Assembly: GCA_000934665.2 (NCBI GenBank)
Contig: JYFJ02001221.1
Span: 62,001 to 86,346, forward strand
Direction of reading: 5' to 3'
DNA: 24,346 nt
DNA from: Catajapyx aquilonaris
Taxonomy: Eukaryota
Shown: positions 210 through 22,212 of the stretch, piece after piece
How positions within the stretch are numbered: the stretch's first letter is position 1
How the letters are laid out: every line of letters starts with the position of its first letter
Notes under the pieces: model-generated
Told to the model about the DNA's origin: nothing
The model's input: only the letters and a program-made list of their open reading frames with translations
Databases searched by the model: none
Made by a program: the position numbers and the translations under genes

Positions 210-2535
210 GTCAGTTATATTTTCATGACTCGCTTCGCCCCTTTCGCGCGCCTTCGGCGCTTGGCATCCCCGCGACTCCGCCCGAATTTTCATGATGAGT
301 CGACACTAGACAGATAACATGATTGCTTGGTGTATATTTTAGAGAGAAGTTGAGGTCATGGGTTTCGACATATGTGCCGTGGTTGTTGCGTCAAGAGCTG
401 TTGTCCGTGGCTCTGAGAGGAGGGAGGCTGTACAATGCGGTGGATCTTCTGTTGCTGGAGCTTCTTCTGGATTCGGATGTGCGAGAGTTGGTCCTGAGAC
501 AGGTGAGAACAGTCACCTTGAATTTCTGCTGACATGTCATTTGCATACTTTTTTCCTGGATCATTTAACTCTCCCGCCTGGGGAATGTTTGTTCATCGAT
601 GATGCCTTCGTCCCGTCGCGTCATTCGAGCGCGAATCCTTCCTTTTGTTGACTCTGGGATTAGATCCTGTCCGTCAGGGACTGGGAGTTACAGATAATTT
701 CGGGGCTTAGGAGGGGAATCCCAATGAGAACATGTTTTCTGACGTCAAATGTTTTTCAACTGTTGTATGGGATAATGATATTTTCACTATCAGTAGGGCA
801 GCACACTTTGCATTCAATAGAAGCTGTCTCATAACTGGAGTTTGACTGACTGTACAGGCTGGACGGGCTAAATAACAATTGTCTCGGGTTGGGGTTAAGT
901 GAGTTCATTTGGTCTTCCCAAAATCTTGCAATGTGCTGTGCGTAATTAGTAACCTTTATAATTAGAAATTAGGCTTCAGTTCTCTGTCACTTTGAAACAT
1001 TCTTATGTACACTGGTCAACAGGTGAAAATATGTAGCACTTGCCTCTGGTACAATAGAAGAAAAATTCGAGTCAAAATTTATCTATGTTAGTTACATAAG
1101 TTTTGCACCTGGTATGGTGCTTTTGCATAACATTGCAGTATAAGATGGGTAGAAGTCTTTATGGAAACATGTTGGATAACTACATTTTTCTCATGTAACT
1201 TATTCATCGAAAAATGTCAGAGCTGTCATAGTGTGAAGGATATTGTTATCACTGGCTTGACAAACAATTATACAACCCTCACAAATTATTCAATTAGGCA
1301 TACTTCAAAGTTCATTATTGTGTTTACATTGCAATGCTACACTGGGGGGAGGGGGTGGGCTAATGTCATTCTTATCAAGTTTGTCGTCATGCCTGACTGT
1401 ATTGTGGATACAATGTATTCACATTTGCGCAACTCAAATGTCTATCTTCCTAATCAGTCAATGAGATATGGTCAACAAGCCCTCTTGAACCTGCAGATTG
1501 AATTCAATGTTAATAATTGTCCTGCAAATGTCAGTGTAAATGTAAATGTTCAGTGTAATCAGTTGGCCAAGAATCAGTCGACACAATAAATGGCCACATG
1601 CTCCTAAAAATAACATAAGTCGTTAATAATAAATTCTAATCAGCTTACTTTATCAGAAGTGTTTCAAGTTCGAGGTTGCTCTAAATGAACCTTTAACAGA
1701 AACACTCAATATCCTGTGTTTTAAAAATGTTCAGTACCACTCAGCTGTCAAAAGATGTCTTTAAAATGTTTGTACGTCAGTCACATATTCATAATGTAAG
1801 TACCATGACTGAAGGCTCTATGACTCTCAACTCTGGCGATTTCTCATAGTCCAGAGCTTTAATGTGGGATGCAATTTGCTCACAACTTTCTCCACTTTGC
1901 TTCAGGTTCGACCATTCTATTGGACCTCATTCTTGTCAATAGTGGCCAGATATGGTGGGGGACTGGAAACTCTTTCCCTGGAGGATTCAGGTGGAACTCC
2001 AGGTCCAATCCTGGGCCCAACCCTCTCATCTCTCCAACACCTACAGTATCTTACTCTCCGATTTGTTGCGGACGATACCTGCCTTGCTACCTTGGGGTAT
2101 AACTGCCACCATCTCCAGTCATTGGATGTCTCCAGCTCACTGTCTGTTACTGATTCCGGCCTCCGACTCCTGTGTTTATGGACACCACCTCCTCCCGACC
2201 ACAACACTTTGGACAACACTGAGTTGCAACACAACTGTTGGGGGGTGAAGCAGGGTGAATCCATAAAAAAGGAGAGCTGCTTTGACCTGGTGAATGTGTG
2301 CTTGCAGCCTCTTATAAACAATGCAATTGGAGAAGCTGATGGCCAGTCCTGGAAGCGCCGACCATCCTGGTGGAGGCAGTCTCTCCTCAAGAGAGCCAAA
2401 AAGAATCCATGCTGTTCCTCACTGCTGAAGATTAACTTGAATGCAACCCAAGTTACTTGCGGTGGGCTACACATTATTTCAGCATGCGTTCCTTCTGCTG
2501 TAGTTCTCACTACCATAAAGTCAAGACATTTGTGA
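100..2535 (+). CDS. Uncharacterised BC-box/Cul2-box (VHL-box-like) leucine-rich-repeat protein, ~299 aa; exons 100-209, 343-502, 1906-2535
   Basis: ATG100 has an in-frame TGA at 91. Splice sites ag|gtcagt (210), tttag| (342), cag|gtgaga (503) and ctttgcttcag| (1905) give matching phases (2, 0). The joined CDS is 900 nt. The protein has N-terminal PEKLQFMCCASF and VPWLLRQEL motifs and cysteine-containing LRRs (LQYLTL, CHHLQSLDVSSSLSVTDSGL, CSSLLKINLNATQVTCGGL). Confidence 0.75.
229..285. mobile_element. 57-bp GC-rich micro-insertion flanked by 10-bp direct repeat ATTTTCATGA
   Basis: attttcatga at 219-228 and 286-295; internal gcgcc-ttc-ggcgc hairpin and three TTCG motifs. Confidence 0.55.
343..502 (+). 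CDS. LRR gene coding exon 2 (EKLRSW...RELVLRQ)
   Basis: Inside ORF 323-532; acceptor tatattttag, donor gtgaga. Confidence 0.75.
1906..2535 (+). CDS. LRR gene terminal exon (VRPFYW...SRHL*)
   Basis: Inside ORF 1864-2535; strong pyrimidine tract and acceptor at 1905 (an alternative in-frame cag at 1854 is possible); F-box/LRR-type repeats. Confidence 0.8.
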   Translation, partial: VRPFYWTSFLSIVARYGGGLETLSLEDSGGTPGPILGPTLSSLQHLQYLTLRFVADDTCLATLGYNCHHLQSLDVSSSLSVTDSGLRLLCLWTPPPPDHNTLDNTELQHNCWGVKQGESIKKESCFDLVNVCLQPLINNAIGEADGQSWKRRPSWWRQSLLKRAKKNPCCSSLLKINLNATQVTCGGLHIISACVPSAVVLTTIKSRHL

Positions 2536-2768
2536 GTTTTGGTTTGGAGCCATTCATACGCCATGTAATGCATTTGTGAGAGGAAGTGTGGAAATGAGTT
2601 CATGGCAAGCATACGTGCTCACTGTAATAAGCAGCTGATAGGAATGGATGAAGACTGGAAAAGCTATGCAGAATTGGAATGCTGAAATCAGCATGGGCTA
2701 GTCAACAACTTTCAAATATAAGTCCATATGGTGCAATCTTTTGGCTAGGACCACAAATCTCTCAAGGA

Positions 2769-2774
2769 TTTATT
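2769..2774 (-). terminator. Probable poly(A) signal of ATP5MK
   Basis: AATAAA on the minus strand ~67 nt after the stop. Confidence 0.6.
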
Positions 2775-2840
2775 CCAGCAAGTATCATGACAGCTAATGA
2801 AATCCTATGTACAAGAAATTTTAGAAATTTCAACAGCATC

Positions 2841-2915
2841 TTATGCCTTCTTCTTGGGCTTCAGGTACATGAAGAGGAGGAGAGATCCGACAATGGCATA
2901 AGTTGCCTTAGCAAC
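2841..2915 (-). CDS. ATP5MK: ATP5MK coding exon 2
   Basis: 24 codons plus TAA; encodes the hydrophobic TM helix and KPKKK. Confidence 0.93.
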   Translation of the reverse strand, partial: VAKATYAIVGSLLLFMYLKPKKKA

Positions 2916-4012
2916 CTGTAAAGAAGACCAAGTCAAACATTAGCAGTAATCTCACTTGGACTTTGATACCAGTAGTCTTTGAATGGTAGAGCCATTGTTA
3001 CCATTGTCATATTGATATCCATACTTAGATTCCTGCTATTATAGTGTGCTGACAACTGTCAAAAAAGATCCTGCCACAATGCACCATGAAAAACAAAAGT
3101 TTCTCTGTATTTGAACTCAACAGGTGCTGCAGCAATGTGCTTCTATTTCTTTGTTGGTTTTAAAAAATTTGCCATTTTAAAAGTTCACTTTGAAAAGGTC
3201 ATTACTGTGATATGTTGTAAAATGAAGGGTCATAATATGGGGCTTTCCAGCATAGGATTCAAGGTGCTGTACAGATAATTTTGTATAATATTTAAAAATA
3301 AAAGTGAAAATCTTTTTTTAACCTTCTAGTTAGTCACCATTGTCACTCAATAGCATTGCCTTACGTCCCACAGGTAAACATGAACCATAATTTAAAATAA
3401 GGCAGAATCCAAAGTATACCCCAAGAGAGAAGACATTCATGTGCAAATTATATGCCTCTCTTCTCAACAGATAAAATTTAAGTACTGTAAATGCAAGACT
3501 CTCCCCTTCCTATTTAGCATCATACAGTGAATCCTGTCTTCCAAGTAGCTGATATTTGTTATAGGTATGCTGTACATAAATGTGTTCATTAGAGAAGATT
3601 TCAAAGAAATTGACTGATTCTGATTCCTTCAGTTCACAATGCAAGACTGGCCTTAACAGAAGTAATATTCTATACTTCACAGCAATTTGAGACTAACTTG
3701 TAAGAAATAAACATGGGCCTAGAAGCACAGCTATGAAACTTGGGACCTGGACTGTTCAATTCTGTCCTTCCTGCCACCTGCATGTGTGGGCTTTTAACAA
3801 TAAAAATTTGCCAATCTGGGATGGACAACATGCGTACAAGTATTCCCTCCTCACACGATGACTGGAACATGTCAATAATGTGCAGGTTCTGAGTTATTGT
3901 GGTGACCGTAAATAAAGAAAGGCTTCCTTACATTTGCCCGCCCCCTGATGGTGGTACCATTGAAGTGCTTGGACAGGCCCTTGAACTGTGAACCTTCAAC
4001 TTCTCCAGCCAT
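2841..4012 (-). CDS. ATP5MK: ATP synthase membrane subunit K / DAPIT (USMG5; Drosophila Neb-cGP-like), 51 aa; coding exons 4012-3932 and 2915-2841
   Basis: Spliced translation MAGEVEGSQFKGLSKHFNGTTIRGRAN|VAKATYAIVGSLLLFMYLKPKKKA* matches the DAPIT signature (GxxKxFNxxTxxGRxN-xxxATY, TM helix, basic tail). Canonical GTAAGG donor and CTTTACAG acceptor, phase 0. Confidence 0.95.
3297..3302 (+). terminator. Candidate poly(A) signal of the LRR gene
   Basis: First canonical AATAAA seen after stop 2535, followed by T-rich sequence. Confidence 0.4.
3932..4012 (-). CDS. ATP5MK: ATP5MK coding exon 1 (exon begins at 4022)
   Basis: Acceptor tatttcag 10 nt before the ATG; 27 codons. Confidence 0.93.
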
Positions 4013-4159
4013 TGCTCACTCCCTGAAATAATAAAACAGCATCATCATATTTCAAGTTCACTTACTACAATGATCCATTTACATTACCACCAATTTTATT
4101 ACATTACTACCATTTATGCCACTCTCTTGCTGCTTCTAGTGATAAAAGCACCTAAGCTA

Positions 4160-4449
4160 CTGTGCCCTGGTCACATGTGAAACAAGTCTCGGACAACTCT
4201 CCAGTGATACCACAAGAAACGAGCATCAATTGCCCAGATGACACACCTGATGTTGTTGATGTCATGCCCTTCTTGCAACGTATGGGTTTGGGGTTGAAGA
4301 TGGGCATAGCATAAATTACACCATGTTCTGCTCTAGTTTGAGGACATCTGTTGCAACAACGGTGTGAACGATGGAGACTGTTGATCACACCGGATATTTT
4401 CCCATCAGGAAAACGATTGCAAGTTATTTATGTCACATCTGATCAGGGC
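4160..4449. mobile_element. Candidate degenerate hAT-like MITE in ATP5MK intron 1
   Basis: 17-bp inverted repeats (15/17) at 4164-4180 and 4433-4449; 8-bp direct repeat CTAAGCTA at 4152-4159 and 4450-4457. Confidence 0.45.
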
Positions 4450-5000
4450 CTAAGCTATGGTCCCCAAACAAACATGATGGGAGCCAAGTAGTCTCCTAAA
4501 AATCACGTAAGGTTCACACAATTCCTTCCGACTTGGCTTTGAGCCACATCCCATATTGGGCTTTTATACATAGTTGCACAGTGTACAATTTGTTTGCAAA
4601 ACATTACTGGCGACAGTTTTGTTATAGCAATTGCTGCTTCCAATGTGACCAAAAATCATTCAGCTAGCCCACATAGTAAACCAATTTACACAATTTATCG
4701 CCCACATCAGGTTCTGCACTCACGATCTTTGACGCCTTGCATTGGGAATGTCGCCAACTTGAAAAAATTTGCCACTACCAATTTTTTTCAGGAGACATGA
4801 CCGACTCTACATTATTGCGACCTTCCTTTGACTTCATTATTCTGGATCTTATCTGCTGCAATGGAATCAGGGCATTCCATTTACAAGTCATACTCATGTA
4901 ATTATTCCCTACACACACACAAGTGGAGTGATAAGCTACCGTCACGAATACCGGACACTTCGGGAGGTACTGCAACCTCCTGCCCGATCCTAGTTCTCAC

Positions 5001-5070
5001 CTCTTCAGAGTTATATCACCCAGAATTTTGCAAATGTAATAATCCGGAATAGGTGAAGAGGGCGAAGGGA
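5001..5070 (-). other. ATP5MK: Probable non-coding first exon of ATP5MK (5' end approximate)
   Basis: Donor GAG|GTGAGA at 5000; pyrimidine-rich start region CTTCCCTTCGCCCTCTT; no upstream ATG. Confidence 0.6.
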
Positions 5071-5450
5071 AGTGACGTCACGGATACAGGGCTCGGTTCC
5101 AAATAAAGTGTGAGCAGATGAATATGGTGGAAGATAGTCGCTATAAAAATCAATTTAAATTGATCTTAAAACTAGATAATATATCAATAAACGGTTATAT
5201 ATATTTTTTCTTATAAAACTACTAGTTATAAGTTTCGAGCTGCACTTTTGTCTGACAACCCTTCCAATGAAATATGGCCGCCGCTGACCATGCTTTCGGA
5301 AGATTTGGCGTCTGAAAAGCAAGCTGAAAAGTGACCGTACGGAGAGGAAGCTTCTGTGCACGTGAGCCAGGTAGTGCGGCCAAGTAGAGGAGCAACCAGA
5401 GATTTCTTGAAGGGCTGTTAGAAGGGCAGATAAATGAATGGAGAGGAAGC
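5060..5450. promoter_or_regulatory. Bidirectional promoter shared by ATP5MK and RRP5
   Basis: CpG-enriched segment between divergent genes. GGAAGTGACGTCAC (ETS+CRE) 5068-5081, YY1-like AATATGGCCGCC 5271-5282, E-box CACGTG 5359-5364. Confidence 0.65.
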
Positions 5451-6100
5451 AGAGTGTTGATAACATGAGTTCAACACGCAGGCAGTGTTTGGAAAAACTC
5501 TTTGAAGGGTTTTGGGGGTTTTGGGTAAATACTGCGAAAGCTGGTACAAATTTAGGTAAAATTTATGCGCGTAATGGAAAAGTCGAGAAGTTGTAATTTT
5601 TAAAAAGTCCATAGCATTAGCGTAATCAGTGAGTATGCATGGGGCCCTGCAAATCACTGAAAATAGGTCAACTGCACACCACTGTTTGTTGGGTAGTCGT
5701 AGGCCTACATGTTAATTAGTCATCATGATGTTGCGGCAGCAATAGTGCAGTAGTGAAATATAGTTTTATTGCCATTTTTGAGCAGTTGGTTTTTTTCGTT
5801 GCCAAAAACACTTGAAAATAAGTTCTTCCATTTTTCCCTTTCTGTGTAAGCAAGAGAGTAAAAGGAGTCTCATTGATTGCCCAGCAAGAAAGCTGATGTG
5901 TGAATATTCTAATGAGGAAAATTGTTAATCTTTATCATATGACAGTTGCCCACTACCTTTGAAAGTTAATGAAATACTACATGGGTGCCTAATTTATTGT
6001 CAAAGTGTGACTGTTCTATTACCGGTAATGTTCAGTTGTTTTCCTAGCATGATATTAGTGACTAAGTTGTTGTTATTTCAGGTTTTGATAGAGCAGAGTT

Positions 6101-6334
6101 ATGGCAGTTAAAAGGGAAGTCGACTTTCCCCGTGGTGGGGTACGGAAGAAGCTGAAGACTGAGGTCAAAGTGCAGCAAAAGAAGGACAAGGATCTATTCC
6201 AGGTGGAAAAGCCAGGTGCTGGGAAGGAGAAGAAAGTTAAGAAGAGGAAGACAAGCAAGGAGAAGGAAAGCAAAGATGACTCGGGATTTAAGATGGCCTC
6301 AAAGATTACTCAAGTTGAGCAGTTGGATTATGTT
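6101..6334 (+). CDS. RRP5: RRP5 coding exon 1 (exon starts 6082)
   Basis: Acceptor ttatttcag 6081; DFPRGG; donor gtaagt 6335. Confidence 0.92.
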
Positions 6335-9300
6335 GTAAGTATGCAGCACATTTTCATGAGCTCAAAAAAGAAGGGCAATGTTTTAAACCAGGGACTGCCC
6401 CTCTAGTAATTCCCGTTACATAGTTGTACTGTGGAGTTGGGACTACCTGACCTCTATTATCTGACATTCTGCATTATCTGGCACAGCCATGCAAGATACT
6501 ACTCTACTATTGTTTCACTTCGTTGATTTGAAATTCACTACTAGTTTACATGACATGCAGGATGGTCGGTAAATGGTGCACAAGGTTCAGGTAGTGAGAT
6601 TCTTTGTGAAAAACCGGCATATATGAAAGTGAAGGTCCTAGTGCTCTACGATCTATCACAATCTATCACGAGGCCTCCGAAAGTTGGAGCCAAATTGTGA
6701 TGTCACAATCATCTGCCAGTGACATTCAAAAGCAACTGCATCGCTACTGTATACGCCTCGTTGCTAGGTGTTGCCAGATGTTGCCATGTCGCTGTCCCAC
6801 GCATTCCCACCTAACACTCTTGAACCTTATAAACATGTGGGAATATGGGGGCATGGCAGTTCCTGGCAACATCTGGCCACACCTGGCAATGAGGCGTATA
6901 CAGTAACGATACAGTAGTGTTTGAATTTCGCGGGCAGACGGGATGTCACGATTTGGCACCAACCTTGGAGGCCTCATGAGCGATAATCACGCATCGTAGA
7001 GCAATTGGATCTTCACTTCCATATACTGGTTTTTCACAAGGAATTTTGTATGTGAAGCTTGAGCGCCATTTACCGACCACCCTGCATAATTATATTTCTT
7101 TAAGAATAATTATTGATCTGTATTATTTGGGTTGCAGGGAAGAACAGTAATAGTGAATTTGATTAAATCCTTGGATATTTAATTTACAATTTGTTCTACA
7201 CTCCTTTCCACCTGTTCCATTGTAACCTTGTCTTTGTGGTGAACTGCCAGTTTCAACTCCTATTCTTCTCTACTTCTCTCAGTCACGAGCTCCATGAGCC
7301 TCCTGGTATTAATTGCCTGGGTTCCCACAATAAACCGACAAATTCAAACCATTCTCATTTTGTTTACATTATTGGGATTCTGCAACACTTATGATGATGG
7401 TAGAATAATAAGTATTACAAGTGGCACATTGGAACACATGATCAGTAGGTAACAAGGGTGAGAGCGAAAAGCAACATGGCAACACACTGACTCTTGACTA
7501 GTTTTGCAAAATCAAAAGCAAATGAGATAGATTTTCTTGGGATTGTCACTCCACACATTGGTACTTCCAGAGCAGAAGTCCAAATGTGGAAGGTGTAGAA
7601 TTGTGCAAAATGATAATAATTTTTGACATAACTGAAAGAGGTTAATGACTGAAAATAATGAGAAAAAAATGACACAGTTGTGCCATAATAATGATAATCA
7701 TTGCTGTCATTTAAAGCAGGCCTGGGTGTTATCTGTGGTACATTGAACATCAATGTGTCATATTTTCAGAATGAGGCTGCAGCATTGTAAATGAAGCTCG
7801 TAGTTTTCAATTATAGCACTGTCAAAGCTGTAAATTCTATGCAATACATATATTTTTTAAATCAATCTCAGTATTTGTTTGATAAGCTCCCTTAGTTTCT
7901 GTACTCCTTTGAATTTTATGACTGTAAATAGGAAACAGATTTGAAAATTGCTGAGCTTTAACCTACTTATTGTGTCACATTAGTGTTACATTTTAAAAAT
8001 GGAATCTTGCAATCATGTGACTAGTCATTTTATACCAGAAATGTACAAGGTTGATCAATTTATTCCAGCACTTGAGCCCTGGGATGCTGGTTTTGGGTTG
8101 CATCCAAGAAATTGGTGATTATGGATTGAAGGTTTCCCTCCCTGGCCGCCTGCAGGGTCAAGTTTCCATTGCAAGCATATCTCAGCCATACAAGGCACAG
8201 CTTGAGAAGATTGCAGAAGGAGACGATTCTGACAATGTAAGTGACATTACTGTTTTAATACCTGCTTGTGAATCAGAGTTTTAAACTCAATGAAATTCCT
8301 CAATTATGCTTCCCTTGCCATGTTGCATTGAAATAATGTGTAAGTGTTGTTCTGGCAAAGTAATGGTATTGTCAGGTTAATTTTGTTTGCATTTTTTCAG
8401 GATGTAAATGACTTAAAGACAATGTTTCGGATAGGCCAGAAAGTTGCGTGCAAAGTTGTGAGTGTGACTCGAGTTGACACAAAGCATGATGTGACTCTCA
8501 CACTTTCACCAGAGGAAGTGAACCAAATGCATAATCCTTACACACTGAGGAAGGGAATGCACATCATTGCTGCAATTAAGAGTGTGGAAGACCATGGATA
8601 TGTAATGGACCTTGGCGTTAAGGGAACCAATGCATTTCTGGCCTCAAACGACGCAAAAGGCTACGTTGAGCACTGGAAGTTTGAGACTTTGAGTGTTGGC
8701 CAATTGCTTCCATGTGCTGTGTTGAAAGTGGATGCATCAGACTCAGCAGCTGTGGTGACACTCACAGCTAATCCAAAGAAGGTGGAGAAGACAAGGATCG
8801 CTGAAGATGCAGATGTGAAGGTCCACTTGCTCCTCCCTGGCCAGCTCATTGATGTCTCCATGCAGAAGGTAATAATTTTTTTTAGTTGCATGAAATGAAA
8901 TATTTTACCCTCCAATTTTTGAAGGTTTGGACTGACTTCACCTTTGTGTTACTGTTAGGGGGACTTATTAATGATAGCAATGGTCCGAACTTTACAAAAT
9001 CATAGTATTTGCATGTACGTTCAGTAATATTCTTATGCTCAGCCCATTACTGTTGCTAAGGTAAACTAGGTAACCTGTTAAAAATCTTGGACCAATTTCC
9101 TATTCCACTGTTTTTCTGCGCATGTGGATTTCTGGAGTACCAGTAATGACTTTTATGGCGGAAGCCAACTAATCTGAAATAAATTGATGGCTCACTAATA
9201 GATAGTCAGATGTGACATTGGCCCTTTGTTAAGAATTAATTTTCTTTCAGGTGCTGAAAGGAGGTCTCCAAGTAAAGGCCTACGGACTGACTGCCTACAT

Positions 9301-12300
9301 ACCTGAAACCCATACACGTTCAACTTGGGATAGCGTTGATAGCTACAGTGACATTGAATCTTTATCTGCTGTGGTGATGTATGTTATGCCCATTACAAAT
9401 CACATCTACCTGAGCCTCAAGCCTTCCCTACTGAGCACCCTCCCTCCTAAGCCTTGGCCTGGCCAACTCAAACCAGGCCAGGTAGTGAACTGTGAAGTTG
9501 CACAGGTCACCACACGTGGCACTATCTTGAAGGTGGAGAAGGCTATGAGAGGATTTGCTACCATGAAGCATTCTTCCGATTCTACTTTTTGCAATGCCAT
9601 GCAACTTCGACAGGAGTTGAAGCCTGGTGCAACAAAGCCCTGCCGTGTGTTTCAATATGATTATTTTGACCAAGTATATGTGTGCAGCCTGAAAAGTTCG
9701 GTGGTTAAGTCGATCATGATGACACTTGAAGATGCTAAAATTGGGCAAAAGGTCAAGGCATCTATTGTGAGCATGGTTGAGAATGGTGGTGCAGTAGTCA
9801 GAATTGGCAGCATGAAGAGTGCTGAAGGTGTCAATGGTTTCATCCCAAAAAGCCACTTGTCAGATTTGCCATTGAGTCGACCTCAGGACCGATTTCAAGT
9901 AGGTCAAAAGGTAGCTTGTCGAGTTCTCCAAGTTGATCCTCAGAAACATCGACTTCATTTGACTGCCAAGCCATCTTTAGTTTCCTCAAAGCTGAAGATT
10001 ATATCTGCGTTTGACCAAGCGCAAGTGGATGATGTTGTTCTTGGGACCATTTTTATGATGAAGGAAACAGGTGTGTTTGTTTCACTGTACGGTGATGTCA
10101 AGGGTTGGATACCCGTCTCCAAACTAAGCTCTGAACATGTGGAATCCCCGGAGAAGAATTTTTATGTGGGACAGACTCTGAAATGCCGCATCGTAAGTTT
10201 GGATTCTTCCAAGAACCGAATGGTATTATCATGCAGGATGAAGGATGCCAATAAGGTTGAGAAACAACCAAATTTTGGAGATGTCATCCAATGCAACGTT
10301 ACACACGTGTTTAAAGACGGATTGCAGGTATGTTTTGATTTATTGTTATGTAAGGCTACTTTGCTTTTTCAAATCCATTGCCATGAAAGCAATCGATTAA
10401 ATTTCTATAATTCCAAGTTTGGACTCTGCATGAGATAAATTATTGCACAGCAAGAGCTATGTTTCAGTGAGTGCAAAGAGAAATGAAATATGTGCAGAAA
10501 ATAAATGGTAGTTTTAATTATCTTCCAAGAAAAAGGGTATTTGAATGTATTGTTATGGACTACGTTGGTATTGACTTTTTCGCTTTTTCATCATGATACA
10601 TTCTTGCAGATAAAATCTACTGAGAATGGTGCCACATACTTCCTACCTGCCGTGCACCTTGGGGATTATCCTAGCCTCACAAGCCTGATGATAGGCACAT
10701 ATACACCTGGAGATGCCCTGAAAGTTGTTTGCTACCAAACAGGGGGTCAATCTGTGTGGGTGACACTGAAGCCAAGTGTGGAGGACTTCATTAAGAAGTG
10801 CCAAGCGGAAGGACTGGAGGGAATGAAGGACTTGAAGGAAGGAACAATCATCACTGGGACTGTGGCTAGCAAGAAGGACTATGGCATGTTCCTGAAGGTA
10901 CCCATGGTCAAACTAAACAAGTGGCTTCTAGTGCACATCAGGGTAAGTTCAGTTGATTGACAGTTTGTTTCTTGTAAGGGAGGGGATATATTGCCTGAAT
11001 CCATGTACCTTGTAGATGAGGTTGCATATAATAATAATAATAATAACAACAACAACAACAATAATCCTGGGTAGTGCTTTCACCCTATTAGGGTCTATTG
11101 CACGGACCTTTATTTAATCCGTTCGTACAGTCATGGTACCGGTACCTATTTAGTGTAACGTCCACGCCCACGGGCAGGGTGACTGGGAGGGGATGTGCAA
11201 AGTGCAGTGCAATGTCCAGGGTGAGGTCATTTTGTGAACTCCCCGGGTGGTTAGTCTAAGGAGTCCCACCTGAGACGAAGCCAGAGATGGCCGAAACTCT
11301 GCACGAGATGAAGGGGGAACCCCTGGCTGGGTTCGAACCCGGGACCTTACCATCCCTGGGCGCCGCAGCGCCACTCTGCCTCCCAGGTGAGGTTGCATAT
11401 AGGTTGCAGATATAATCTGTTCATTATTGTCTGCAACATATTTTCAACCTCACCTTGAAGGCATACGCTTGCACTGTACAGAGCTTAGTATGGGGTATCT
11501 GAAAGAAAATTTATTTATAAATAGTGTTTCTTCATGAAGAGGCTCTTGAAATGGAGAGCCCAGGTTGCTACAAGACTGAACTTTCAAAATGATTTGTTTC
11601 AGAATTTGTCAAGTTCTTTCATAGAAAGTATGGATACTGCTGACATCCAGATTCATCAGACAGTAATGGCCAAAGTGCTGGAGGTTGATGCAGAATCTGA
11701 GAGAGTGTCTTTGACTGCAAGCCTGGAGACTTTCTGGGACCCAAAAGACAAGGGTGTGGCCTTTCTTGAGGGCTACCTCCACAATTGGCATAGAATCTTG
11801 AGCCATGCTTGGCCACAAGATGAAGTTAGACAGAAACTTGTAAAGCACAAGATGGGAAGTTTTATCAGGGGAACTGTTACAAAGGTGACCCTTCAGGGAG
11901 TATTGCTGAAACTGGAGGATGATGTGGATGCCATTGTAACTTCACATCACATTGGAGGTATGTTGAGTTACAGTGATTCATTATCAACGTTTCCATATTA
12001 GGAAAAAGATTGTACAGTACATGTTGCATGTGACAGTTTGACGTGGGTTGTACTTTCCCTGTAATGAACGTCTTCTTACCAAAAATTTCACCAAAATGAA
12101 AAGAAATAATCACTGTCAAGTCCCTGTACTGCACAATCACCTGTTCAAATTTTGAACAATTTGGTGTCTGTTGTCATGAGTAACAGCTACTAGATTTGGA
12201 CTTTGCAGTTTTTTCCCCCTGGGGTGGATCAAGTCACGAAAGTAACACGGATAGTTTAATTTAGATGTGTGGTCATTGTTACTTGCAGTAGGACGTCATC

Positions 12301-15300
12301 TTACATTATTTAGTGTAGCAAACTGTTGGTAAATAAGAGCTAATTGAAGCACTTGTGATGCAGATGCTAGCCTTGAAGAAGGGAATGTGGTGAAAGGAGT
12401 GGTCATCTTTATTGATGTAGCAGAAAATTGTTTGGAGGTCTCCCTTCAGCCAAAGGTTTTGCTGCGGGCCAAGCAGAAAAAGAAAGGTAATGTTTGTGTA
12501 TCTCCAGCATGGTTATTGTTGTTACATATTCCATCCTCTTGTTTTTCCAGATAAGGCAGCCAAGCTGAAAGAAGGACAGGCAGTTATTGGGGAAATTGTT
12601 GTTGTCAAACCACACTTGGCAATTCTTCATGTGAATGAAACAGGTCACCTGGTATATTTGCCTGTCCGCAAGCACATAAATGATTTTGTACCTGATACAG
12701 ACCAGTTTAAGCTGGAAGAGAATGTCAAAGCTGTTGTCAGGAGGTAAAGGTACATTAATATGTTAACAATCATACTTAACCTAACCTAATGTATATCTTG
12801 CCAGCACTGTCATGGACATGGTCATAGCTACGTTGGATCTGAAAGCCACAAAGAAGAAAATGAAACGAAAATTAAAAGCTGCACCTGAGAAAAGTAACAA
12901 GAAAGTGAAGCAGTCGCCAGAAGTAAACAAGGAAAAGAAGGCCAAGGTGGAGCAGAAGGTTGCCATAACTGCAACAGAGACATGGGTGGAGCAGAAGGTT
13001 ACCATAACTGCAACAAAAAGGAAGGCTAAGGCTTCTGAAGCTGAAGTCAAAAGCAAGAAGGTCAAGAAGTTGAAGGAAACCTCCATAGAAAAGGCAGTGA
13101 AGCAGGAAGATGACAGCACTGGCAAGGGGAAAGAGAAAAAGTGTGCCACAACAATAGCCCCACATTTGGATCTCAGTTCTGGCTTTGTATGGGATCAGGA
13201 TGTTCCTTTTACCCAGCTGACAGAGGTGAAGAAAGAAGATGAATCATCAGATGATGAAGAGGAAGAAGTAAAGGTGGGCAGTTTATCAGTCTGAACAGAA
13301 ACTGCAAATCATTGGCTTCTTGACCATCTTGACAGCCAGACAGATTCTGATGTATTGTACTGGCTACTGACTTTATTTCATTAACCTTTTCAGACCAAGA
13401 AACTGAGCAAATCTGAACGTGAGTCCCTGGAAAAGCAGGAAGAACTGGAGACAGAAGAACGTGAACGCCAGTTGATGGATGCTGAGAGAGACCCCCAAAC
13501 CTCAGAAGACTTTGAACGACTAGTGATGGGATCGCCAAACAGCTCCATATGCTGGACCAAATATATGGCCTTCCTGTTGCAGGCCACAGAGATAGAAAAG
13601 GCTAGAGCCGTTGCCAAAAGAGCCCTGGCCACCATATCCTTTAGAGAAGAAGGAGAGCGGCTTAACGTTTGGTTTGCACACCTCTCGATGGAGAACCTGT
13701 ATGGCAGCCAGGACTCTTTCAATAAATGCTACGCAGAGGCTCTGCAGGCTAATGATGCCCTGAAGGTGTACAAACATGTGGCTAACCTATTTATTTCTAG
13801 TGGAAAGATTGAGGTGAGTTTGGTTCTTGAGATGTCAAGCTTAAGAAAATTGCTACTGGCAGAATGTTTGTGAATTGTTACAATGGTGCTCTGTTGATTT
13901 GTGTTACAGTTTAGTATTTCTCCAAACTTCTGTGAATTGTAAATCACAAAATAATTATAAGAGAGATATTTTTGGATCTGGAAGTTTCCATTAAGATGAA
14001 AAATACTCTTGAAAATAGGTGTTTATTTTCCCAGTTGTGAAAATTATTGCTCATTGATAGTGAATGATTTAATCATGAGACTTATCCTTGATTTACAGCA
14101 AGCAGAAAAAGTGTACGAGACGACAAGGAAGAAGTTCAAGGCAGACAAGGAAGTATGGATTGACTTCGGGCTCTTCTACTTCCAGCAAGGGAAGCCAGAG
14201 GAGGCCAGGAAGATTATGCAGAGAAGCTTGCTCAGCCTACCAAACAGGGAACGTGAGTGATTGATTGCAGTTTTTTCGGTTTGGGGTTCTTAGAAGGTGT
14301 GGACTGGGCTGGAAAAAAGATCAGTTCATGTTCAATGTATTGCAAAATGTTATATGAAGGACATATTTTATCAAAACACTATACAGATTCTGTGATGATT
14401 TTAATGCTTTCCGTGACCATGTAAAGTTAGAAAAATTGAGATTTGATACTTTTCAAATCCACATTTTATGTTTGGGAATCAAAATACACAAAAACTGACT
14501 TTAATTTTTTTAAATGTCATTCAAAAATGATTGGGACTCCAATTCTTTTCTGCACACTAACCATTTCATGGGACAAAATAAATTCAGGGTACATGAGGGT
14601 ATTTCCTCCCAATGTCTATGTACTGTTGCCTCCATTCCGGCAATTTTCGTATTGCTGCAGAAAACCATTCTTTGGGGGGTACCCTGGTGCCACTCGTGGA
14701 CAACCGACTGAAGCTCGTCGTTGGAGATGAACTTGTGACAGCGCACTCTTTCATTGCATCAGGCAGAGCATAGTCACTAGTCGCAAGATCTAGTGAATAT
14801 GGAAGATGAGGCAGCACGGTGTACCCTAGAGCCTTCAGGATATCAGTGGTGGAGCGACTGACATGTGGCTCCGAATTGTCGTATCATGACCTCTATGGTA
14901 CACTGTGCTGCCTCATTCTCCATAGTTGCCGGATCTTGAGACTAGAGACTATGTTCGGATCTACCCAATGAAAGAGGCAGTGCACTATCACTAGTTCACC
15001 TCAAACAACGAGCTTCAGTTGGTTGTCCACGAGTTGTGCTGGATACCCCCAAAGAATGGTCTTCTGCACTAATATGGAAACTGCCGGAACGGTGGCAACA
15101 GTGCATACACATTGGCAGGGAATACCCTAATGTACGTGCATTCATTTTGTCCCATTAAGTGGTTAGTGTGCAGAAAAAAATTGGGAGTCCCAAGCATTTT
15201 TGAACGAGCTATAGGAACAACTGCATTGCAAATTATTGCATTATGAACTGAAGTCAATCCTGCAAATCATCTGTTGAGTTGCTTGCAACCTATTACTGAT

Positions 15301-18226
15301 GCTGCACAGTGGTGGTGGGTTTTGTTGTTGTGGGCTTACTGGAAACAGGTACTGTACCAAAGTAATTATCACCAAGCAGCAAGCAGCTTTGTCTATTGGC
15401 AGGGCTACCCAAGTCAGACAGGTCTTTGGGATAGGAGACAGACTAAGAGTGATATCAATCTTTCCTCTCTTCTTTTTCCTCTTGGTTTTTCTCTCCATCC
15501 TTTGTGTCTTCTTATAGCCAGATAGTCATAGTTGCTTTGGCTCCTTCCTAAGAAACCAAACCAAACCAAGCAGCATGGGATAAAGGAAAGGAAGAGAACT
15601 CAGTTGAGTATGACACAACATCATATGGGAGAGGGAGGTTTTGAGAATGGGGATAAATGGGCGAACCTTGAGCAAACCTGCACAAACATAGAGCTTCATT
15701 ACATGGACTGTTGCATCACTTCTATTTGAAAACATTGGATGGACCCCCCTGCCCTGTAGTAACAAGTTACATATTGGGCCTCTGAGAGCAGTGGAGTCTC
15801 TGTCACCGCTTCTCCCTCTCCTCCTCCCAACCACCACCTACTCCAAAATCCAGTAAGTTGGATGATATTGGAAAGTGCTGAAGTTGGAAGAAAGAAGATC
15901 CAGTGATATGGAAGGAGTAATCCGCTTAAAACTGAACATTGGGCAGGTAAAAGGTGGATCAACTCAGGGCAGCAACTTCCTATGCATCTCGAGTTGGGTG
16001 TCCTTTTTCACAAGTTATATGCCAATGATGCTGCTCCATAACCTGCACACCTTTCTGAACCGTTTCAAATGGGCAGCATGTAATGCAGCTCGTAGAGAAC
16101 CCCAAGAAACTTCACCTCTACCTAGGGATTGACTTGGGACCTCAGCAATAGAAGGCTGTGACATTAACTAGGACACCACCATGCTGCCCCTGCAATGGTG
16201 ATGGTAATGTGGACTGCAAGCAGTCAGAATTGCATTGTATTGATAATAATCATTGCTGCATGCAATGGGACAGAATCCAGGAAGAGATTTGCCAATTTTG
16301 ACTCCATTGTGGAGATAGCTGACTAATTTTTTTCTGTTACTCATGGAGATTAGGGAATTTCCTTAAACTCTGATGCCACAGTAATGATGGAGACAGCATA
16401 ACCAGCAAGATATGTCATCATTTCCAGAAGTTATGGAGGAAAACAGACTCACATGTGCTTATTTATTCATATGTTACAGAGCCAAAGTTTCCAATATCAA
16501 ATAGGACAACATTATCAGAGACTTCCAAAGGAATACATATTGCATGGGAAATGTAGACCTTTCTCACCACCTTGTATAGTAGAATGAAATACCCGGCATT
16601 CAGAATTGATTTTCCTGTGTGTGGATTTGTTCCAATGTTTAAAAAATACAATGTGATACAAAGCATTATTGGATGAGAATCTTTTCCTTCGGGATTTCAT
16701 TGTCTTGACTAAATAGCTAGCCAATGGAGGACATAATTGAAATGACTTTTTTCGAGGGCGACACGGTGGCGGAGTGGTTAGCGCCACAGCCTTCCACCTC
16801 TAAGGTCCCAAGTTCAATCCCTGGTTCAGGCAGAGGATACTTATGTGGATAGAGTTTCGATGGGTTCTCTCCGTGTTAGCGTGGGTTTTCTTGGGGTTCT
16901 CCCGTTTCCTCCCCCTATCAAAATCCATCACATTACAGGCAAATGATTCAAGTCGGTGAATTAAAATATGATCCCCGAAAAAGCCCAATGAAGCTTATCA
17001 AGGGGTATCCATTATTATTATTATTAAATGCGTTTCTTCATACACAAAGTTGTTTTTTAATAAGCTTGCTTGTAATCTGGCATAATATAAGGACAAAGGC
17101 CAGTCCAAGTTTGTGACATACATTTTTGATTTTATGAGTGTTTTGTGGAATGTCAGTATTAGATAATAATAATAATAATCCGGGGTAGTGCTTGACCTTA
17201 TCTGAGGTATGCAGCACGGACCTTTATTTATTACATCAAGTACATTTGAGCCTTTTTACGTAGCGCCCGGGCCCACGGGCAGGATGACAGGAGGGGATGT
17301 GCAAGGTGCAGTGCAATGTCTTAATGTGGCCATTTTTAGTGAACTCCCCCGGGTGGTTTAGTCTGTGGAAATACCACCCAAGACTCTGCACGAGATGAAG
17401 GGGGTGTCCCCGGGTTGGGATCGAACCCGGGACCTTAACATCCGTGGGCGCATAAGTTACCGCAGCACCACTCCGTCTCCCCTTATGTCAGTATTAGATA
17501 CTGCCATTCTATATTGCCAGCACTGAGAATGTGATTTGTTGTGTTGGTAAAGAAGTAGGCCATTCACATAGTCAGGGACACTCTTGTCTAGTAGTCACTG
17601 TAATTGTGAGAAGTTTCCAATGCTCCCTTTTGGAAAATAATTGTGCATAATCAAAGGTACACATGAAGAGCCAACCCCTTGGGGAGGAAGACAGAAAGAA
17701 TAGTAGCAAGAAAGAACCTATTGATGCAGCAGAATGTTATTGTAATAAATTGTTTCCTATTGCTGTGGCAGATATTGCAGTTCTGAACAAATTTGCTCAC
17801 CTGGAATTTCAAATGGGCAGTGCAGAAGTTGGGAAGACCATGTATGAGCAGATCTTAAGCACTTATCCAGCCCGAGTAGACTTATGGAACGTTTATGTGG
17901 ATGCCCTTGTGAAGTCTAATGACATTGATGGTGCCAGGTTAGTATCCTTTTCTTAATGCAAAATATTTACTGTTACTTCACTTACACATTATATTTTTCT
18001 TCTATTCAGATCAGCCTTGGAGAAGGCGTCTAGCTTGAATTTGCGTCCTAAAAAAATGAAGAGTGTGTTTAACAAGTTTTTGAAATTTGAGTCTCAATTT
18101 GGGACGCCTGAATTACAGAAGAAGGTGAGGGACAAGGCCAAGGCTTATGTGGAAAGCAAGGCAGGGGACAAGGCTTCTGATGATGAAGAGGAGGTCAAGG
18201 AAGAGGTCAAAAATGAAGACATGTGA
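6101..18226 (+). CDS. RRP5: rRNA biogenesis protein RRP5 / PDCD11, 1458 aa; 13 coding exons: 6101-6334, 8069-8236, 8401-8868, 9251-10327, 10610-10942, 11603-11957, 12364-12486, 12551-12743, 12805-13273, 13394-13813, 14099-14252, 17772-17937, 18010-18226
   Basis: N-terminal DFPRGG, tandem S1 domains (SVEDHGYVMDLG; GFIPKSHLSD), and C-terminal HAT/TPR region (DFERLVMGSPNSSICWTKYMAF; ISFREEGERLNVW; YPARVDLWNVY; PKKMKSVFNKFLKFE). All introns GT-AG with matching phases; total 4377 nt. Confidence 0.96.
6555..7087. mobile_element. Fold-back (fully palindromic) MITE with Tc1/mariner-like CAGG(G/A)TG ends
   Basis: Arms ~6555-6810 and ~6837-7087 are reverse complements (atgcaggatggtcggtaaatgg / ccatttaccgaccaccctgcat; ctactgtatacgcctc / gaggcgtatacagtaa); ~26-nt spacer. 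Confidence 0.88.
8069..8236 (+). CDS. RRP5: RRP5 exon (S1 domain)
   Basis: ttccag| ... |gtaagt, phase 0/0. Confidence 0.92.
8401..8868 (+). CDS. RRP5: RRP5 exon (S1 domains)
   Basis: ttttcag| ... |gtaata, phase 0/0. Confidence 0.93.
9251..10327 (+). CDS. RRP5: RRP5 exon (several S1 domains)
   Basis: ctttcag| ... |gtatgt, phase 0/0. Confidence 0.95.
10610..10942 (+). CDS. RRP5: RRP5 exon
   Basis: cttgcag| ... |gtaagt, phase 0/0. Confidence 0.92.
11031..11384 (-). mobile_element. tRNA-derived SINE, family A copy 1
   Basis: Minus-strand A box TGGCGCTGCGG and B box GGTTCGAACCC; (ATT/GTT)n tail; 17-bp TSD ag(a/g)tgaggttgcatata at 11014-11030 and 11385-11401. Confidence 0.92.
11603..11957 (+). 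CDS. RRP5: RRP5 exon
   Basis: gtttcag| ... |gtatgt, phase 0/1. Confidence 0.92.
12364..12486 (+). CDS. RRP5: RRP5 exon (ASLEEGNVVKGVVIFID...), not in the ORF track
   Basis: atgcag| ... |gtaatg, phase 1/1, S1-like sequence. Confidence 0.88.
12551..12743 (+). CDS. RRP5: RRP5 exon
   Basis: ttccag| ... |gtaaag, phase 1/2. Confidence 0.9.
12805..13273 (+). CDS. RRP5: RRP5 exon (Lys/Glu-rich linker, GFVW motif)
   Basis: ttgccag| ... |gtgggc, phase 2/0. Confidence 0.88.
12946..13015 (+). repeat. In-frame 39-bp tandem duplication in the RRP5 linker
   Basis: ggtggagcagaaggtt(g/a)ccataactgcaaca at 12946 and 12985 (VEQKVAITAT / VEQKVTITAT). Confidence 0.9.
13394..13813 (+). CDS. RRP5: RRP5 exon (HAT/TPR start)
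   Basis: ttttcag| ... |gtgagt, phase 0/0. Confidence 0.95.
14099..14252 (+). CDS. RRP5: RRP5 exon (HAT/TPR)
   Basis: tttacag| ... |gtgagt, phase 0/1. Confidence 0.93.
14513..15211. mobile_element. Mariner (DD34D)-derived fold-back element made of two inverted 3' ends, with decayed transposase fragments
   Basis: ~320-bp arms are reverse complements; symmetric TA at 14511-12 and 15212-13. The minus strand reads DNSEPH...VLPHLPYSLDLATSDY (34 residues between the two D) and, after a frameshift, IRKLPEW. Confidence 0.93.
16090..16190 (-). mobile_element. Decayed tRNA-derived SINE head related to the 16756 element (3' extent uncertain)
   Basis: Minus strand GGGCAGCATGGTGG...CACAGCCTTC...AGGTCCCAAGTCAATCCCT aligns with 16756-16822. 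Confidence 0.7.
16756..17025 (+). mobile_element. tRNA-derived SINE, family B, with V-domain-like core
   Basis: A box TGGCGGAGTGG, B box GTTCAATCC, core gttctctccgtgttagcgtgggttttcttggggttctcccgtttcctccc, (ATT)5 tail; weak aaatg direct repeat at the flanks. Confidence 0.88.
17166..17482 (-). mobile_element. tRNA-derived SINE, family A copy 2
   Basis: Homologous to 11031-11384; B box GGTTCGATCCC; (ATT)n tail; perfect 16-bp TSD atgtcagtattagata at 17150-17165 and 17485-17500. Confidence 0.92.
17772..17937 (+). CDS. RRP5: RRP5 exon (HAT/TPR)
   Basis: ggcag| ... |gttagt, phase 1/2; the junction gives H-IAVLNKFAHLEF. Confidence 0.93.
18010..18226 (+). CDS. RRP5: RRP5 terminal exon
   Basis: tattcag|, phase 2; ends at TGA 18224-18226. 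Confidence 0.93.
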
Positions 18227-18284
18227 AGTGTCTTTGAAAATTAATTTCAAATGTGTTGGGGTCTCACAGTCAGTGAAGGTTTTT

Positions 18285-18509
18285 AATAAATTTTAAACTG
18301 AAGATTTTCTAGTGTCTGTTCTACATGCAACATCCTCACTCATCATTAGTATGTAGATTATACATTGTTAGTGATTTTGTGTATCTTGATAAGAGAATGG
18401 TATATTTTAGGCACCGACGTGGTAATCATAATTGCACAAATACTGTTGGATTTTTTTAAATGTAATAAAATAATTTTTGCTGTGGATTGGTAAGTGAAAG
18501 ATTAATAAA
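18285..18509 (+). terminator. Candidate RRP5 poly(A) signals
   Basis: AATAAA at 18285, 18464 and 18504. Confidence 0.55.
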
Positions 18510-19499: not shown

Positions 19500-20022
19500 T
19501 TGCTGACGTGTGCTAGGATATGAGGATAGCCGTCCCAAGACGAACAACTCCACGAAAAAAGGGGGTCGGTGTACCCGCCTGCAGGGGGTAGCAATAAAAG
19601 TGGGGCGTCGCCTTTAATCACGTGGATTTTAGCTGCCAAGGGAACGGGGTCAAGCATCCCCAACAGCCATCCTTTTCTTTCTTCGCCCCTTCTACTTGCC
19701 TACTTGCTCCTTTGCTCATGGCCTACCTACCTGCCCAATCTTCGCATAACCCCTTCTCTTCCTGACGCCCCCAGCAAAGAACTTGACTTTTCCGTTCCCA
19801 CCTGCCATTTCTAGACCTTGGCATTCAACCGCAGAAAATTCGCGCTTTTCTGCACTCATCCCTCTGAATTTATTTGTATATAAAAAAACCCCGGCGTCTT
19901 TGACACCACATCTTTCAAAAGTTTGGTTCAGTTTTGTGGGAATACGACCACAGTAATAGATTGCTCGGAAGTGGTTTTTGAGGATGCACACGACTGGTGA
20001 CTTATTGTTGAAAAACAATTGG
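19500..20022 (+). promoter_or_regulatory. Candidate promoter and non-coding first exon of an unidentified downstream gene
   Basis: Abrupt switch to CpG-rich sequence; CACGTG 19619; TATATAAA 19877; TCAGTT 19928; strong donor gg|gtgagt 20023. Confidence 0.45.
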
Positions 20023-22008
20023 GTGAGTTTCTTTTATTGTGTCATACCTGTCGGTAATTCGTAATTGAAATAAGAGCTGATTTTTAGGAATCTGCGCATA
20101 ATGCCCGGAGTGTAATTGGAGAATTTTTTAAAATATGCTATCGTAAAGAGTTGTGTCGACTCATAAAAATATTTCGATTACATATTGTGATTGCCTATAT
20201 ACGTAATCGTCGATTTTCCCGAATTTTCGTTGATAAAACTGGTTGTAAATTAATGCGATTTGGGAACGACTTTTTAAACGATTGTAAGGTGTACGGTGTC
20301 TCAAATCATTGACTTTGGGATTTTCAATATTTTAATGAAATTAGGCGAATTTGATCGAAAGGTGTATTAATTTGTGTCAGTATAAAACGATAAGATGTCA
20401 GATGGTATCACCAATGGTGTTTCTTTGTACTGTACCATTCCCGTCATCTGAGGAACTGAGGTGTTCCAAGCGGAAATACAGTATAGCCTTTTTGTGTTCA
20501 TTCAACCAATTCAATTCGTGTTTATTGCAGCGGAAATGCGTAATAAATTCAGTGCAGTCATGGGCAAAATGGAGACAAAAAAAAGTTCAATATTTGCGAC
20601 TACGTAATGCCTTCCTATTTTACAGAGGTACACCTAAATGACTGACATATCGAACTTTTACTTTAGCTGTGAGTTTTAGCTTTGTTTGTTTACCAACTTT
20701 GTGCCGTTATGTGATTCACCCTGTATTTTATGGTCGGGTTGACATTCAAACACCAATGTAGTGAATATAGTGCCAGACAGATTAGTGGATACTCTTGTTC
20801 TACATGATACTAGTTGCCATTTTTATTCGCAAAAAACATGAGGTAAAGTAGGACTACCTAAACACGGGGAAAAGTAGGGCCCACTTGTAACAACCATTAA
20901 AATCCTTTCGGCTCCGGCGCGGAAAAAATCCACTTGACCCCAATATAAAGCTGGATTTTTTTGCGGTCAAGTGTTACGGAAAAAAATACATAACACCGTT
21001 ATGTAAGAATTTGGAAAAATGGAGTACAGTGAAAGCTCACTTTTTATCAGATTAAGGAGCATTGATGATAAACCATATGAATCAGACGTAATTATTTAAA
21101 GAAATTTAGATACAGTATCGTACCTGAATGGAGATTGAATACAGAAAGTTTAATATAATGGCGATTTTATTGACTGTAAGTGTGAATTTGATATGACATG
21201 TAATTGGCGCTTGGTTTACTCCATAAAGTGTAATACCGTGTCTATAATGTTCACCTCACATTTTTGGACACCTTTTTGAATTTTGATGATAATCCTGCTG
21301 CTTTACGTAATGACCTATACGCATTTGTAATATCGCGGAAGATGTAAGAAGTCAACAGCTGCGTAACGGAAGGAACATAAAGAATTCGCATATTCATCAC
21401 ATGATGTACCGGTACTGCTACAATGCCTCGTGAGTTGTGCCTTACATAGCACGCACAAAGCAGGGTGCCGTTACAAGAGAAGCTACTGTTGCATTAACCA
21501 AATCTATAAGTATGGACTCGGATGTACGGTATACCGTCATACTCAACCTAATTAACAATATCAGACGCATGATGCTCGATGTTTATTATTGTTTCTCGCA
21601 GTGTCATTCCGTTCATCACGCATACAGTATACCTATAGGGTAGCTTCAAAGCAGTTGACCACATGACGGAACCTTACTTCACTTGCGAAAGTTGTTTTGA
21701 TGACATAACGTAAACTTCGTGCCTTGTGTACTGCCACCTTATAACAGCATTCAGGAAGTAGAAAGTTAAAAGCATGCGAATTGCGACGACGGTCATTAAC
21801 GAATGTTATGAGAGTTGGACCTGCATTGCATGTTATGTAGCAATACCGAGTCTACATGTCAAGGCCATTTATAAAATTGTAAATGAGTATGTGGCATGCA
21901 ACACGATTGCATTGATGTCACGTATCGGTTTTCGGAGGAGCAATCGACAATTAAGGGCAACTCAATTGGTGCCTCTGATTGTTGGACCACTATTCCCAAT
22001 GCCACCTT

Positions 22009-22212
22009 TACACTCTCAGCCATGTAACCTCAATATTCAAGTTACATTATTGCAAAATTTGTACCTTATAGCAGTTACCATGAAGTAGATATTGCTCTCA
22101 TTACGTACATTGAGCATACATTTCTGATGTACATTTTCCAGGGTTTTGCTGTCGTTGTATCTTTGAAAATACTGTTGAAAAGCAACGTTGAAGTTACATG
22201 ACTGAGAGTGTA
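22009..22212. repeat. Inverted-repeat element (MITE-like)
   Basis: tacactctcagccatgtaacctcaatatt (22009-22037) vs reverse complement of 22184-22212, 25/29 identity; TA at both ends. Confidence 0.6.

What the first reader, a model, noticed from the sequence alone, without database searches (positions are those of the whole stretch)
2841..6334. ATP5MK-RRP5/PDCD11 head-to-head pair, apparently conserved between an arthropod and human
Seen: DAPIT/ATP5MK (minus) and RRP5 (plus) diverge from a promoter of a few hundred bp. Known (from memory): human ATP5MK (USMG5) and PDCD11 are adjacent and head-to-head on 10q24. The human ATP5MK coding intron falls after GRMN (c.87), the same phase-0 position as GRAN| here. 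Inference: the pair may date to the bilaterian ancestor. It may be kept by a shared promoter that couples an ATP synthase subunit to ribosome biogenesis. Such a link would be easy to miss because the 51-aa gene is often unannotated.
Basis: partly seen in the sequence, partly recalled or inferred. Interest (0 to 1): 0.8.

Follow-up and report, generated by a model that had tools for sequence, protein, structure and literature searches.

The report
Back-to-back gene pair shared with humans
In this crustacean-like genome a tiny ATP synthase subunit gene and the ribosome-assembly gene RRP5 sit back to back, as they do in humans and in a water flea; this is likely an ancient gene pair of a known kind, kept by a probable shared promoter rather than by a functional link.

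Summary
ATP5MK/DAPIT (two coding exons, minus strand, 51 codons, Pfam PF14960) and a full RRP5/PDCD11 (plus strand) diverge, with start codons 2,088 bp apart. Spliced contigs place their 5' ends at most about 850 bp apart, over a CpG-rich stretch. The human pair is a published bidirectional promoter; mouse has the same divergent pair, zebrafish is listed too and chicken has the genes adjacent. New here: a Daphnia-like metagenome contig (L017) has the same head-to-head pair, 347 bp between start codons, so the link likely predates the split between the window's lineage (malacostracan-like) and water fleas. It is not universal. Only 1 of 7 DAPIT loci with enough upstream DNA carried RRP5, a termite locus and two other loci have other neighbours, and Drosophila Rrp5 pairs with another gene. 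Molluscs, annelids, echinoderms, amphioxus and cnidarians could not be tested, so bilaterian age is inferred (about 0.8). Coupling of ATP synthase to ribosome biogenesis has no support. Verdict: a new member of a known class (ancient 5'-5' microsyntenic pairs); I found no report of it outside vertebrates.

The parts
2841..2915 (-). ATP5MK/DAPIT last coding exon (24 codons + stop; predicted membrane helix and basic tail)
   Evidence: PF14960 positions 29-50, E 4.9e-4; AATAAA at 2774 on the minus strand
2916..3931 (-). DAPIT coding intron, 1,016 nt, phase 0, GT..AG, after GRAN
   Evidence: a donor at the same site in 20 of 27 other DAPIT loci; no spliced contig across it was shown
3932..4022 (-). 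DAPIT first coding exon (10 nt of UTR, ATG at 4012, 27 codons)
   Evidence: (E 5e-11); contig covers 3939-4021
4023..4110 (-). DAPIT 5'UTR intron, 88 nt, GT..AG
   Evidence: joint in a contig of run X1, depth 48
4111..4437 (-). DAPIT transcribed leader exon (5' end not reached); 10 ATGs upstream of the DAPIT start counted over 4438-4013
   Evidence: one contig with 6 differences from the genome; ATG count
4438..5290 (.). Interval that must contain both start sites; candidate shared promoter (CpG-rich, AT-rich core near 5100-5200, CRE palindrome at 5073)
   Evidence: bounded by contigs; CpG o/e 0.83-0.98 at 4801-5600 against 0-0.5 in flanking gene bodies; motifs; bins
5291..5370 (+). RRP5 non-coding first exon (5' end not reached), with CACGTG E-box at 5359
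   Evidence: spliced contig 5291-5367 joined to 6079, GT..AG
5371..6081 (+). RRP5 5'UTR intron, 711 nt
6082..6334 (+). RRP5 first coding exon (ATG 6101, FPRG motif), spliced to 8069
   Evidence: (loose end matching 8069)
8069..18339 (+). Rest of RRP5/PDCD11: S1/OB repeats, then HAT repeats; stop at 18226, transcript seen to 18339
   Evidence: Pfam, ORFs, tblastn, seven GT..AG joints in one contig

Best explanation
ATP5MK/DAPIT and RRP5 are transcribed in opposite directions from a stretch under 1 kb, an arrangement likely inherited from the bilaterian ancestor and likely kept because one short shared promoter rarely survives a chromosome break, not because the two proteins need joint control. 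Shown: both genes, their orientation, spliced leaders on both sides, the same pair in a Daphnia-like contig, and (in print) in vertebrates. Inferred: that the CpG-rich interval 4438-5290 is one unmethylated, open promoter firing both ways; that the vertebrate and crustacean pairs share descent; and that losses in flies, termites, moths and other arthropods happened by partner exchange. RRP5 probably gets its growth control from a Myc-type E-box on its own side.
For: Window anatomy. L017: DAPIT ATG 3815(+), RRP5 ATG 3467(-), 347 bp apart; RRP5 tblastn E 7e-42; DAPIT closest to Daphnia, with a leader collinear with two other Daphnia-like loci. The window's organism is a separate lineage: its arginine kinase scores about 460 bits with the top single-domain entries (one named Pro c 2, a crayfish allergen) against 417 or less for entries I recall as Daphnia and Limulus. 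Vertebrates: human gap 172-189 bp, mouse 141 bp, zebrafish listed; chicken adjacent; a 531-bp human fragment of this promoter enhanced both reporter genes of the screen. Chance recurrence among 924 human pairs is 0.05-1.85 pairs for partner pools of 20,000-500 genes (my arithmetic). Irimia et al. report 600 deeply conserved pairs in human, 54.8% of them 5'-5', with repeated lineage losses (passages). Partner exchange: Drosophila CG5728 pairs with CG6413 at 109 bp; DAPIT faces a HAD-like hydrolase in L015 and L022.
Against: Only two deep branches carry the pair (vertebrates, pancrustaceans), three lineages by Irimia's count, below their threshold of four. No mollusc, annelid, echinoderm, hemichordate, amphioxus or cnidarian was tested. 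RRP5 was found at 1 of 7 loci with more than 2.2 kb upstream. The wider human neighbourhood is not shared: TFIID_NTD2 (TAF5-type) genes lie on other contigs, and the tail-to-tail neighbour here is an LRR gene. There is no conserved promoter sequence between the window and L017 beyond short chance-level matches. Start sites are not mapped; the evidence is contigs from one run of unrecorded type.
Confidence: 0.62

Rival explanations
1. Independent re-association: two housekeeping genes that each favour head-to-head promoters came together once in a vertebrate ancestor and once in a pancrustacean ancestor.
For: Both genes pair head-to-head with other partners elsewhere. With a small partner pool (500 genes on a shared ancestral chromosome) about two chance recurrences per genome pair are expected, and a genome scan selects for such cases. 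Flanking synteny is not shared.
Against: With larger pools the expectation is 0.05-0.5, while hundreds of ancient pairs are documented. Exact adjacency, orientation and a sub-kilobase gap all match in three groups.
Confidence: 0.2
2. Ancient pair kept by selection for joint regulation, tying supply of ATP synthase subunit k to ribosome biogenesis.
For: Retained from zebrafish to human and between two crustacean classes. The human fragment was active on both reporters. Irimia et al. argue that co-regulation preserves many 5'-5' pairs.
Against: Absent at the fly, termite and probably moth loci, with other partners in flies and in L015/L022. GO-similarity score 0. The E-box lies on the RRP5 side in both crustaceans (post hoc, shuffle p 0.02-0.14 and 0.03). 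One accessory subunit is a poor handle on ATP synthase output (own knowledge). No co-expression data were tested.
Confidence: 0.18

Closest known systems
Human USMG5/ATP5MK-PDCD11 bidirectional gene pair (PMC9740945, PMC10175485, PMC2871058 Table S5, PMC2670823 file 2)
   Same: Same two orthologues, same divergent orientation, gap under 1 kb, DAPIT intron at the matching codon.
   Different: The published range is vertebrates only. Here the start sites are unmapped, TAF5 is not the next gene, and no promoter sequence conservation was shown.
Conserved ancestral microsyntenic pairs (CAMPs) in 5'-5' orientation, e.g. HSPD1-HSPE1 (Irimia et al. 2012, PMC3514665)
   Same: Unrelated housekeeping genes, head-to-head, short gap, patchy retention with loss in flies.
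   Different: Seen in three lineages here, not the four required. The partners have no shared function, unlike HSPD1-HSPE1. I could not read the CAMP list to see whether it already holds this pair.
Drosophila CG5728-CG6413 divergent pair (PMC2670823; the names Rrp5 and Dis3 for these ids are recalled)
   Same: RRP5 on a very short divergent promoter (109 bp).
   Different: The partner is another gene, which shows that the DAPIT link is dispensable.

Membership tests
ATP5MK/DAPIT (PF14960) | Pfam ATP_synth_reg match above the curated cut-off, about 50-60 aa | tested here: met
   42.3 bits against a cut-off of 25 for exon 1; exon 2 covers the rest of the profile; top PDB hits are subunit k/DAPIT, weak at E 0.09
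RRP5/PDCD11 | FPRG N-terminus, tandem S1 domains, C-terminal HAT repeats in one gene | tested here: met
Divergently paired genes / bidirectional promoter | Adjacent, opposite strands, start sites under 1,000 bp apart | tested here: met
   Transcribed ends at 4437(-) and 5291(+), so at most 853 bp between them (one run, contigs only)
Divergently paired genes / bidirectional promoter | One DNA fragment drives transcription in both directions | not testable with these tools
   Reporter activity published for the human fragment; not tested for this genome
CAMP (Irimia 2012) | Non-paralogous genes linked with four or fewer genes between | tested here: met
   Directly adjacent in the window and in L017
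CAMP (Irimia 2012) | Linked in four or more lineages, vertebrates counted as one | tested here: inconclusive
   Three lineages found (vertebrates, malacostracan-like, Daphnia-like); no other invertebrate genomes could be searched; the paper's supplement was unreadable
CAMP (Irimia 2012) | Co-expression above neighbouring-gene controls | not tested
   No expression series available; contigs cannot rank genes

The most novel reading that the evidence does not exclude
A bilaterian-age bidirectional promoter, missed by synteny surveys because one partner is a 51-codon gene, has been kept for over 500 million years because it couples a structural subunit of ATP synthase to ribosome biogenesis.
Probability: 0.15. 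Interest if true: 0.6.

Novelty: new member of a known kind. Interest (0 to 1): 0.32.

Why it matters
It extends a known vertebrate bidirectional pair to two crustacean classes, which suggests that surveys of ancient gene order undercount pairs with very small genes. The human promoter is well studied (ETS sites, recurrent melanoma mutations) and serves a Leigh-syndrome gene (listing). Lineages that kept or swapped the partner give a natural comparison for whether such pairs persist through joint regulation or through resistance to breakage. The class itself is established, so this is a modest addition.

Tried and rejected
Word-seeded homologue search with the DAPIT exon read into its intron found nothing; a full HMMER scan gave 8 hits, 2 of them unrelated repeat proteins. 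Testing adjacency through accession numbers failed for most taxa because the RRP5 hits and DAPIT hits (best 120 of 483 shown, arthropods only among the named ones) shared almost no species. The one overlap, Leguminivora, has accessions about 11,900 apart, which is indirect evidence only, and moths have two DAPIT copies. Viral contigs gave nothing; the two prokaryote-genome hits were weak and had no RRP5. No RNA holder was listed by the run search; run X1 has no recorded type but gives spliced contigs. A non-coding DAPIT exon ending near 5002, which I guessed from a donor-like site, was not seen in the contigs; a hole there proves nothing. A shared CACTTC leader motif was rejected as chance-level. 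A MADF hit upstream of DAPIT in termite locus L007 was absent from 6 of 6 other termite loci, so it was not counted as a partner. L011 is a chimeric transcript contig and uninformative. Supplements: Irimia 2012 unreadable; Robert 2022, Simakov 2015 and Grau-Bove 2024 had no occurrence of the gene names (one file of the last was not searchable), which says nothing on the pair because their tables may use other ids. An ALF family search for taxon placement and an Atlas search of RRP5 were uninformative. No Rfam family in 2500-8100.

Full report
Observation. The minus strand carries a two-exon ATP5MK/DAPIT gene: 4012-3932 (27 codons, ending GRAN at a GTAAG donor), a 1,016-nt phase-0 intron, and 2915-2841 (24 codons and stop). 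The exons match consecutive parts of Pfam PF14960 (E 5e-11 and 4.9e-4), and the genome has one match above the cut-off. The plus strand carries RRP5/PDCD11 from ATG 6101, with S1_RRP5, OB_RRP5 and HAT domains and collinear tblastn hits to amphioxus, hemichordate and coral RRP5 from 8036 to 18169. The start codons are 2,088 bp apart.

Transcripts and promoter. One public run (X1, type not recorded, contigs only) gives spliced pieces. RRP5 has a non-coding exon from at least 5291 to 5370, joined across a 711-nt GT..AG intron to 6082. A DAPIT contig joins 3939-4021 across an 88-nt intron to 4110-4437. Both start sites therefore lie within 4438-5290, at most 853 bp apart. CpG observed/expected rises to 0.83-0.98 in 4801-5600 against 0-0.5 in the flanking gene bodies. 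There is an AT-rich core at 5101-5200, a CRE palindrome at 5073 and an E-box at 5359 inside RRP5 exon 1. The DAPIT leader is odd: 10 ATGs lie upstream of the start, and the contig differs from the genome at 6 places where four other contigs have none. Whether it is the main form is open.

Vertebrates. PMC9740945 (passages) calls ATP5MK-PDCD11 a bidirectional pair and found a 531-bp fragment of it active on both reporter genes. PMC10175485 (passages) describes ETS sites in the shared promoter. Supplement rows give gaps of 189 bp in human and 141 bp in mouse (PMC2670823), and 172 bp with the pair listed for zebrafish, human and mouse only among 64 eukaryotes, GO score 0 (PMC2871058). PMC12672016 lists the pair among human divergent pairs (supplement rows). 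A chicken SNP table places TAF5, USMG5 and PDCD11 together (PMC11636908, passages). Mammalian GRMN aligns with GRAN and ends at residue 29; five papers contain 'c.87+1G' with 'USMG5' (listing only), consistent with the same intron.

Other invertebrates. One metagenome scan with a DAPIT alignment returned 27 loci. tblastn and profile searches found RRP5 in 1 of 27: L017, where DAPIT (ATG 3815, +) and an intron-containing RRP5 (ATG 3467, -) are 347 bp apart. Its DAPIT exon scores best with three Daphnia proteins, and its leader aligns with two other Daphnia-like loci that are too short to test. Most loci are uninformative. The window's own arrangement needs about 2.2 kb upstream, which 7 of 27 have (L007, L010, L015, L017, L019, L024, L028), so the count is 1 of 7. 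Among the misses, termite L010 has 10 kb without RRP5 and a DNase II exon on the DAPIT strand, and L015 has a HAD-like hydrolase facing DAPIT, as does the shorter L022 (taxa not established). L007, L019, L024 and L028 have no clearly identified neighbour. Drosophila CG5728 is paired with CG6413 at 109 bp (that these are Rrp5 and Dis3 is recalled). In the moth Leguminivora the RRP5 and one DAPIT accession are about 11,900 apart (indirect). A donor directly after the GRxN motif is present in 20 of 27 loci, so the intron marks orthology, not linkage.

Placement of the window. The genome's arginine kinase scores 460-463 bits with the top single-domain PDB entries, one named Pro c 2, and 417 or less with entries that I recall as Daphnia and Limulus. 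I take the organism as malacostracan-like, a different class from L017. The pair therefore likely goes back to the common ancestor of the two classes. TAF5-type genes are on other contigs, and the gene beyond DAPIT is an F-box/LRR-like gene, so only the pair is shared with human.

Chance. For 924 human sub-kilobase divergent pairs, chance recurrence is 0.05, 0.18, 0.46 or 1.85 pairs for partner pools of 20,000, 5,000, 2,000 or 500 genes (simple arithmetic, pool size unknown). Irimia et al. (PMC3514665, passages) find 600 deeply conserved pairs in human, 54.8% in 5'-5' orientation, often lost in single lineages, and require four lineages. This pair has three. I put common descent at about 0.8 and re-association at 0.2.

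Mechanism. Most likely one short open promoter serves both genes, and a break inside it would damage both, so the pair persists until a rare rearrangement supplies another partner. Selection for joint regulation is less likely (0.18): partners are exchanged in other arthropods and the GO score is 0. A CACGTG lies on the RRP5 side in both crustaceans (window 5359; L017 3546, about 80 bp from the RRP5 start codon), as described for Myc-driven nucleolar genes in flies (PMC10782387, passages). That motif is a post hoc, weak signal (shuffle p 0.02-0.14 and 0.03). No other conserved promoter sequence was found.

Novelty. Searches for USMG5+PDCD11 (9 papers), ATP5MK+PDCD11 (3), RRP5+DAPIT (0), Neb-cGP+Rrp5 (0) and 'protein RRP5 homolog'+'ATP synthase membrane subunit' (0) showed no invertebrate report in titles, abstract starts or the passages read (3 of the 12 listed papers were opened). 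The CAMP table could not be read and may already hold the pair. The scan's own index had no note on this pair and one similar case for another pair. Verdict: a real feature and a new member of a known kind; interest 0.32.

Noticed in passing
window 4111-4437 (-): The DAPIT leader seen in the contig holds most of the 10 upstream ATGs, including a 51-codon ORF from 4307 with no Pfam match, and differs from the genome at 6 positions. Unusual for a housekeeping mRNA.
   Followed up: partly
window 2886-3398: A contig runs unspliced from DAPIT exon 2 into the coding intron (depth 3.7): retained intron or pre-mRNA.
   Followed up: no
window 1131-2535 (+): F-box/LRR-like gene converging on DAPIT (Atlas 0.93; Pfam LRR_6 E 0.15); a contig covers 1814-2265. 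It stands where TAF5 stands in vertebrates.
   Followed up: partly
window 6555-7087: Nested inverted repeats (five arm pairs, 76-89% complementary) in an RRP5 intron, like a MITE. High-depth repeats also lie at about 11200-11440 and 16800-17480.
   Followed up: partly
window 19800-22800: Long CpG-rich stretch (o/e mostly 0.7-2.0) downstream of RRP5; the ORFs tested there had no Pfam hit.
   Followed up: no
L014:2033-2326, L015:9435-9746, L015:6107-6385, L022:2-238: Another recurring DAPIT neighbourhood in metagenome loci: FAA hydrolase downstream on the same strand (L014, L015) and a HAD-like hydrolase head-to-head (L015, L022).
   Followed up: no
proteins P0102, P0132-P0141: Many moth and butterfly models, and one beetle model, fuse two DAPIT-like units, pointing to a tandem duplication merged by gene prediction.
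   Followed up: no
L037:1267-2517 (G000:C3): A second, divergent, apparently intronless phosphagen kinase ORF (416 aa open frame) in this genome besides the ordinary arginine kinase.
   Followed up: no
L011: Chimeric transcript contig: an elongase ORF, a chlorophyll a-b binding ORF and an animal DAPIT in one record.
   Followed up: yes
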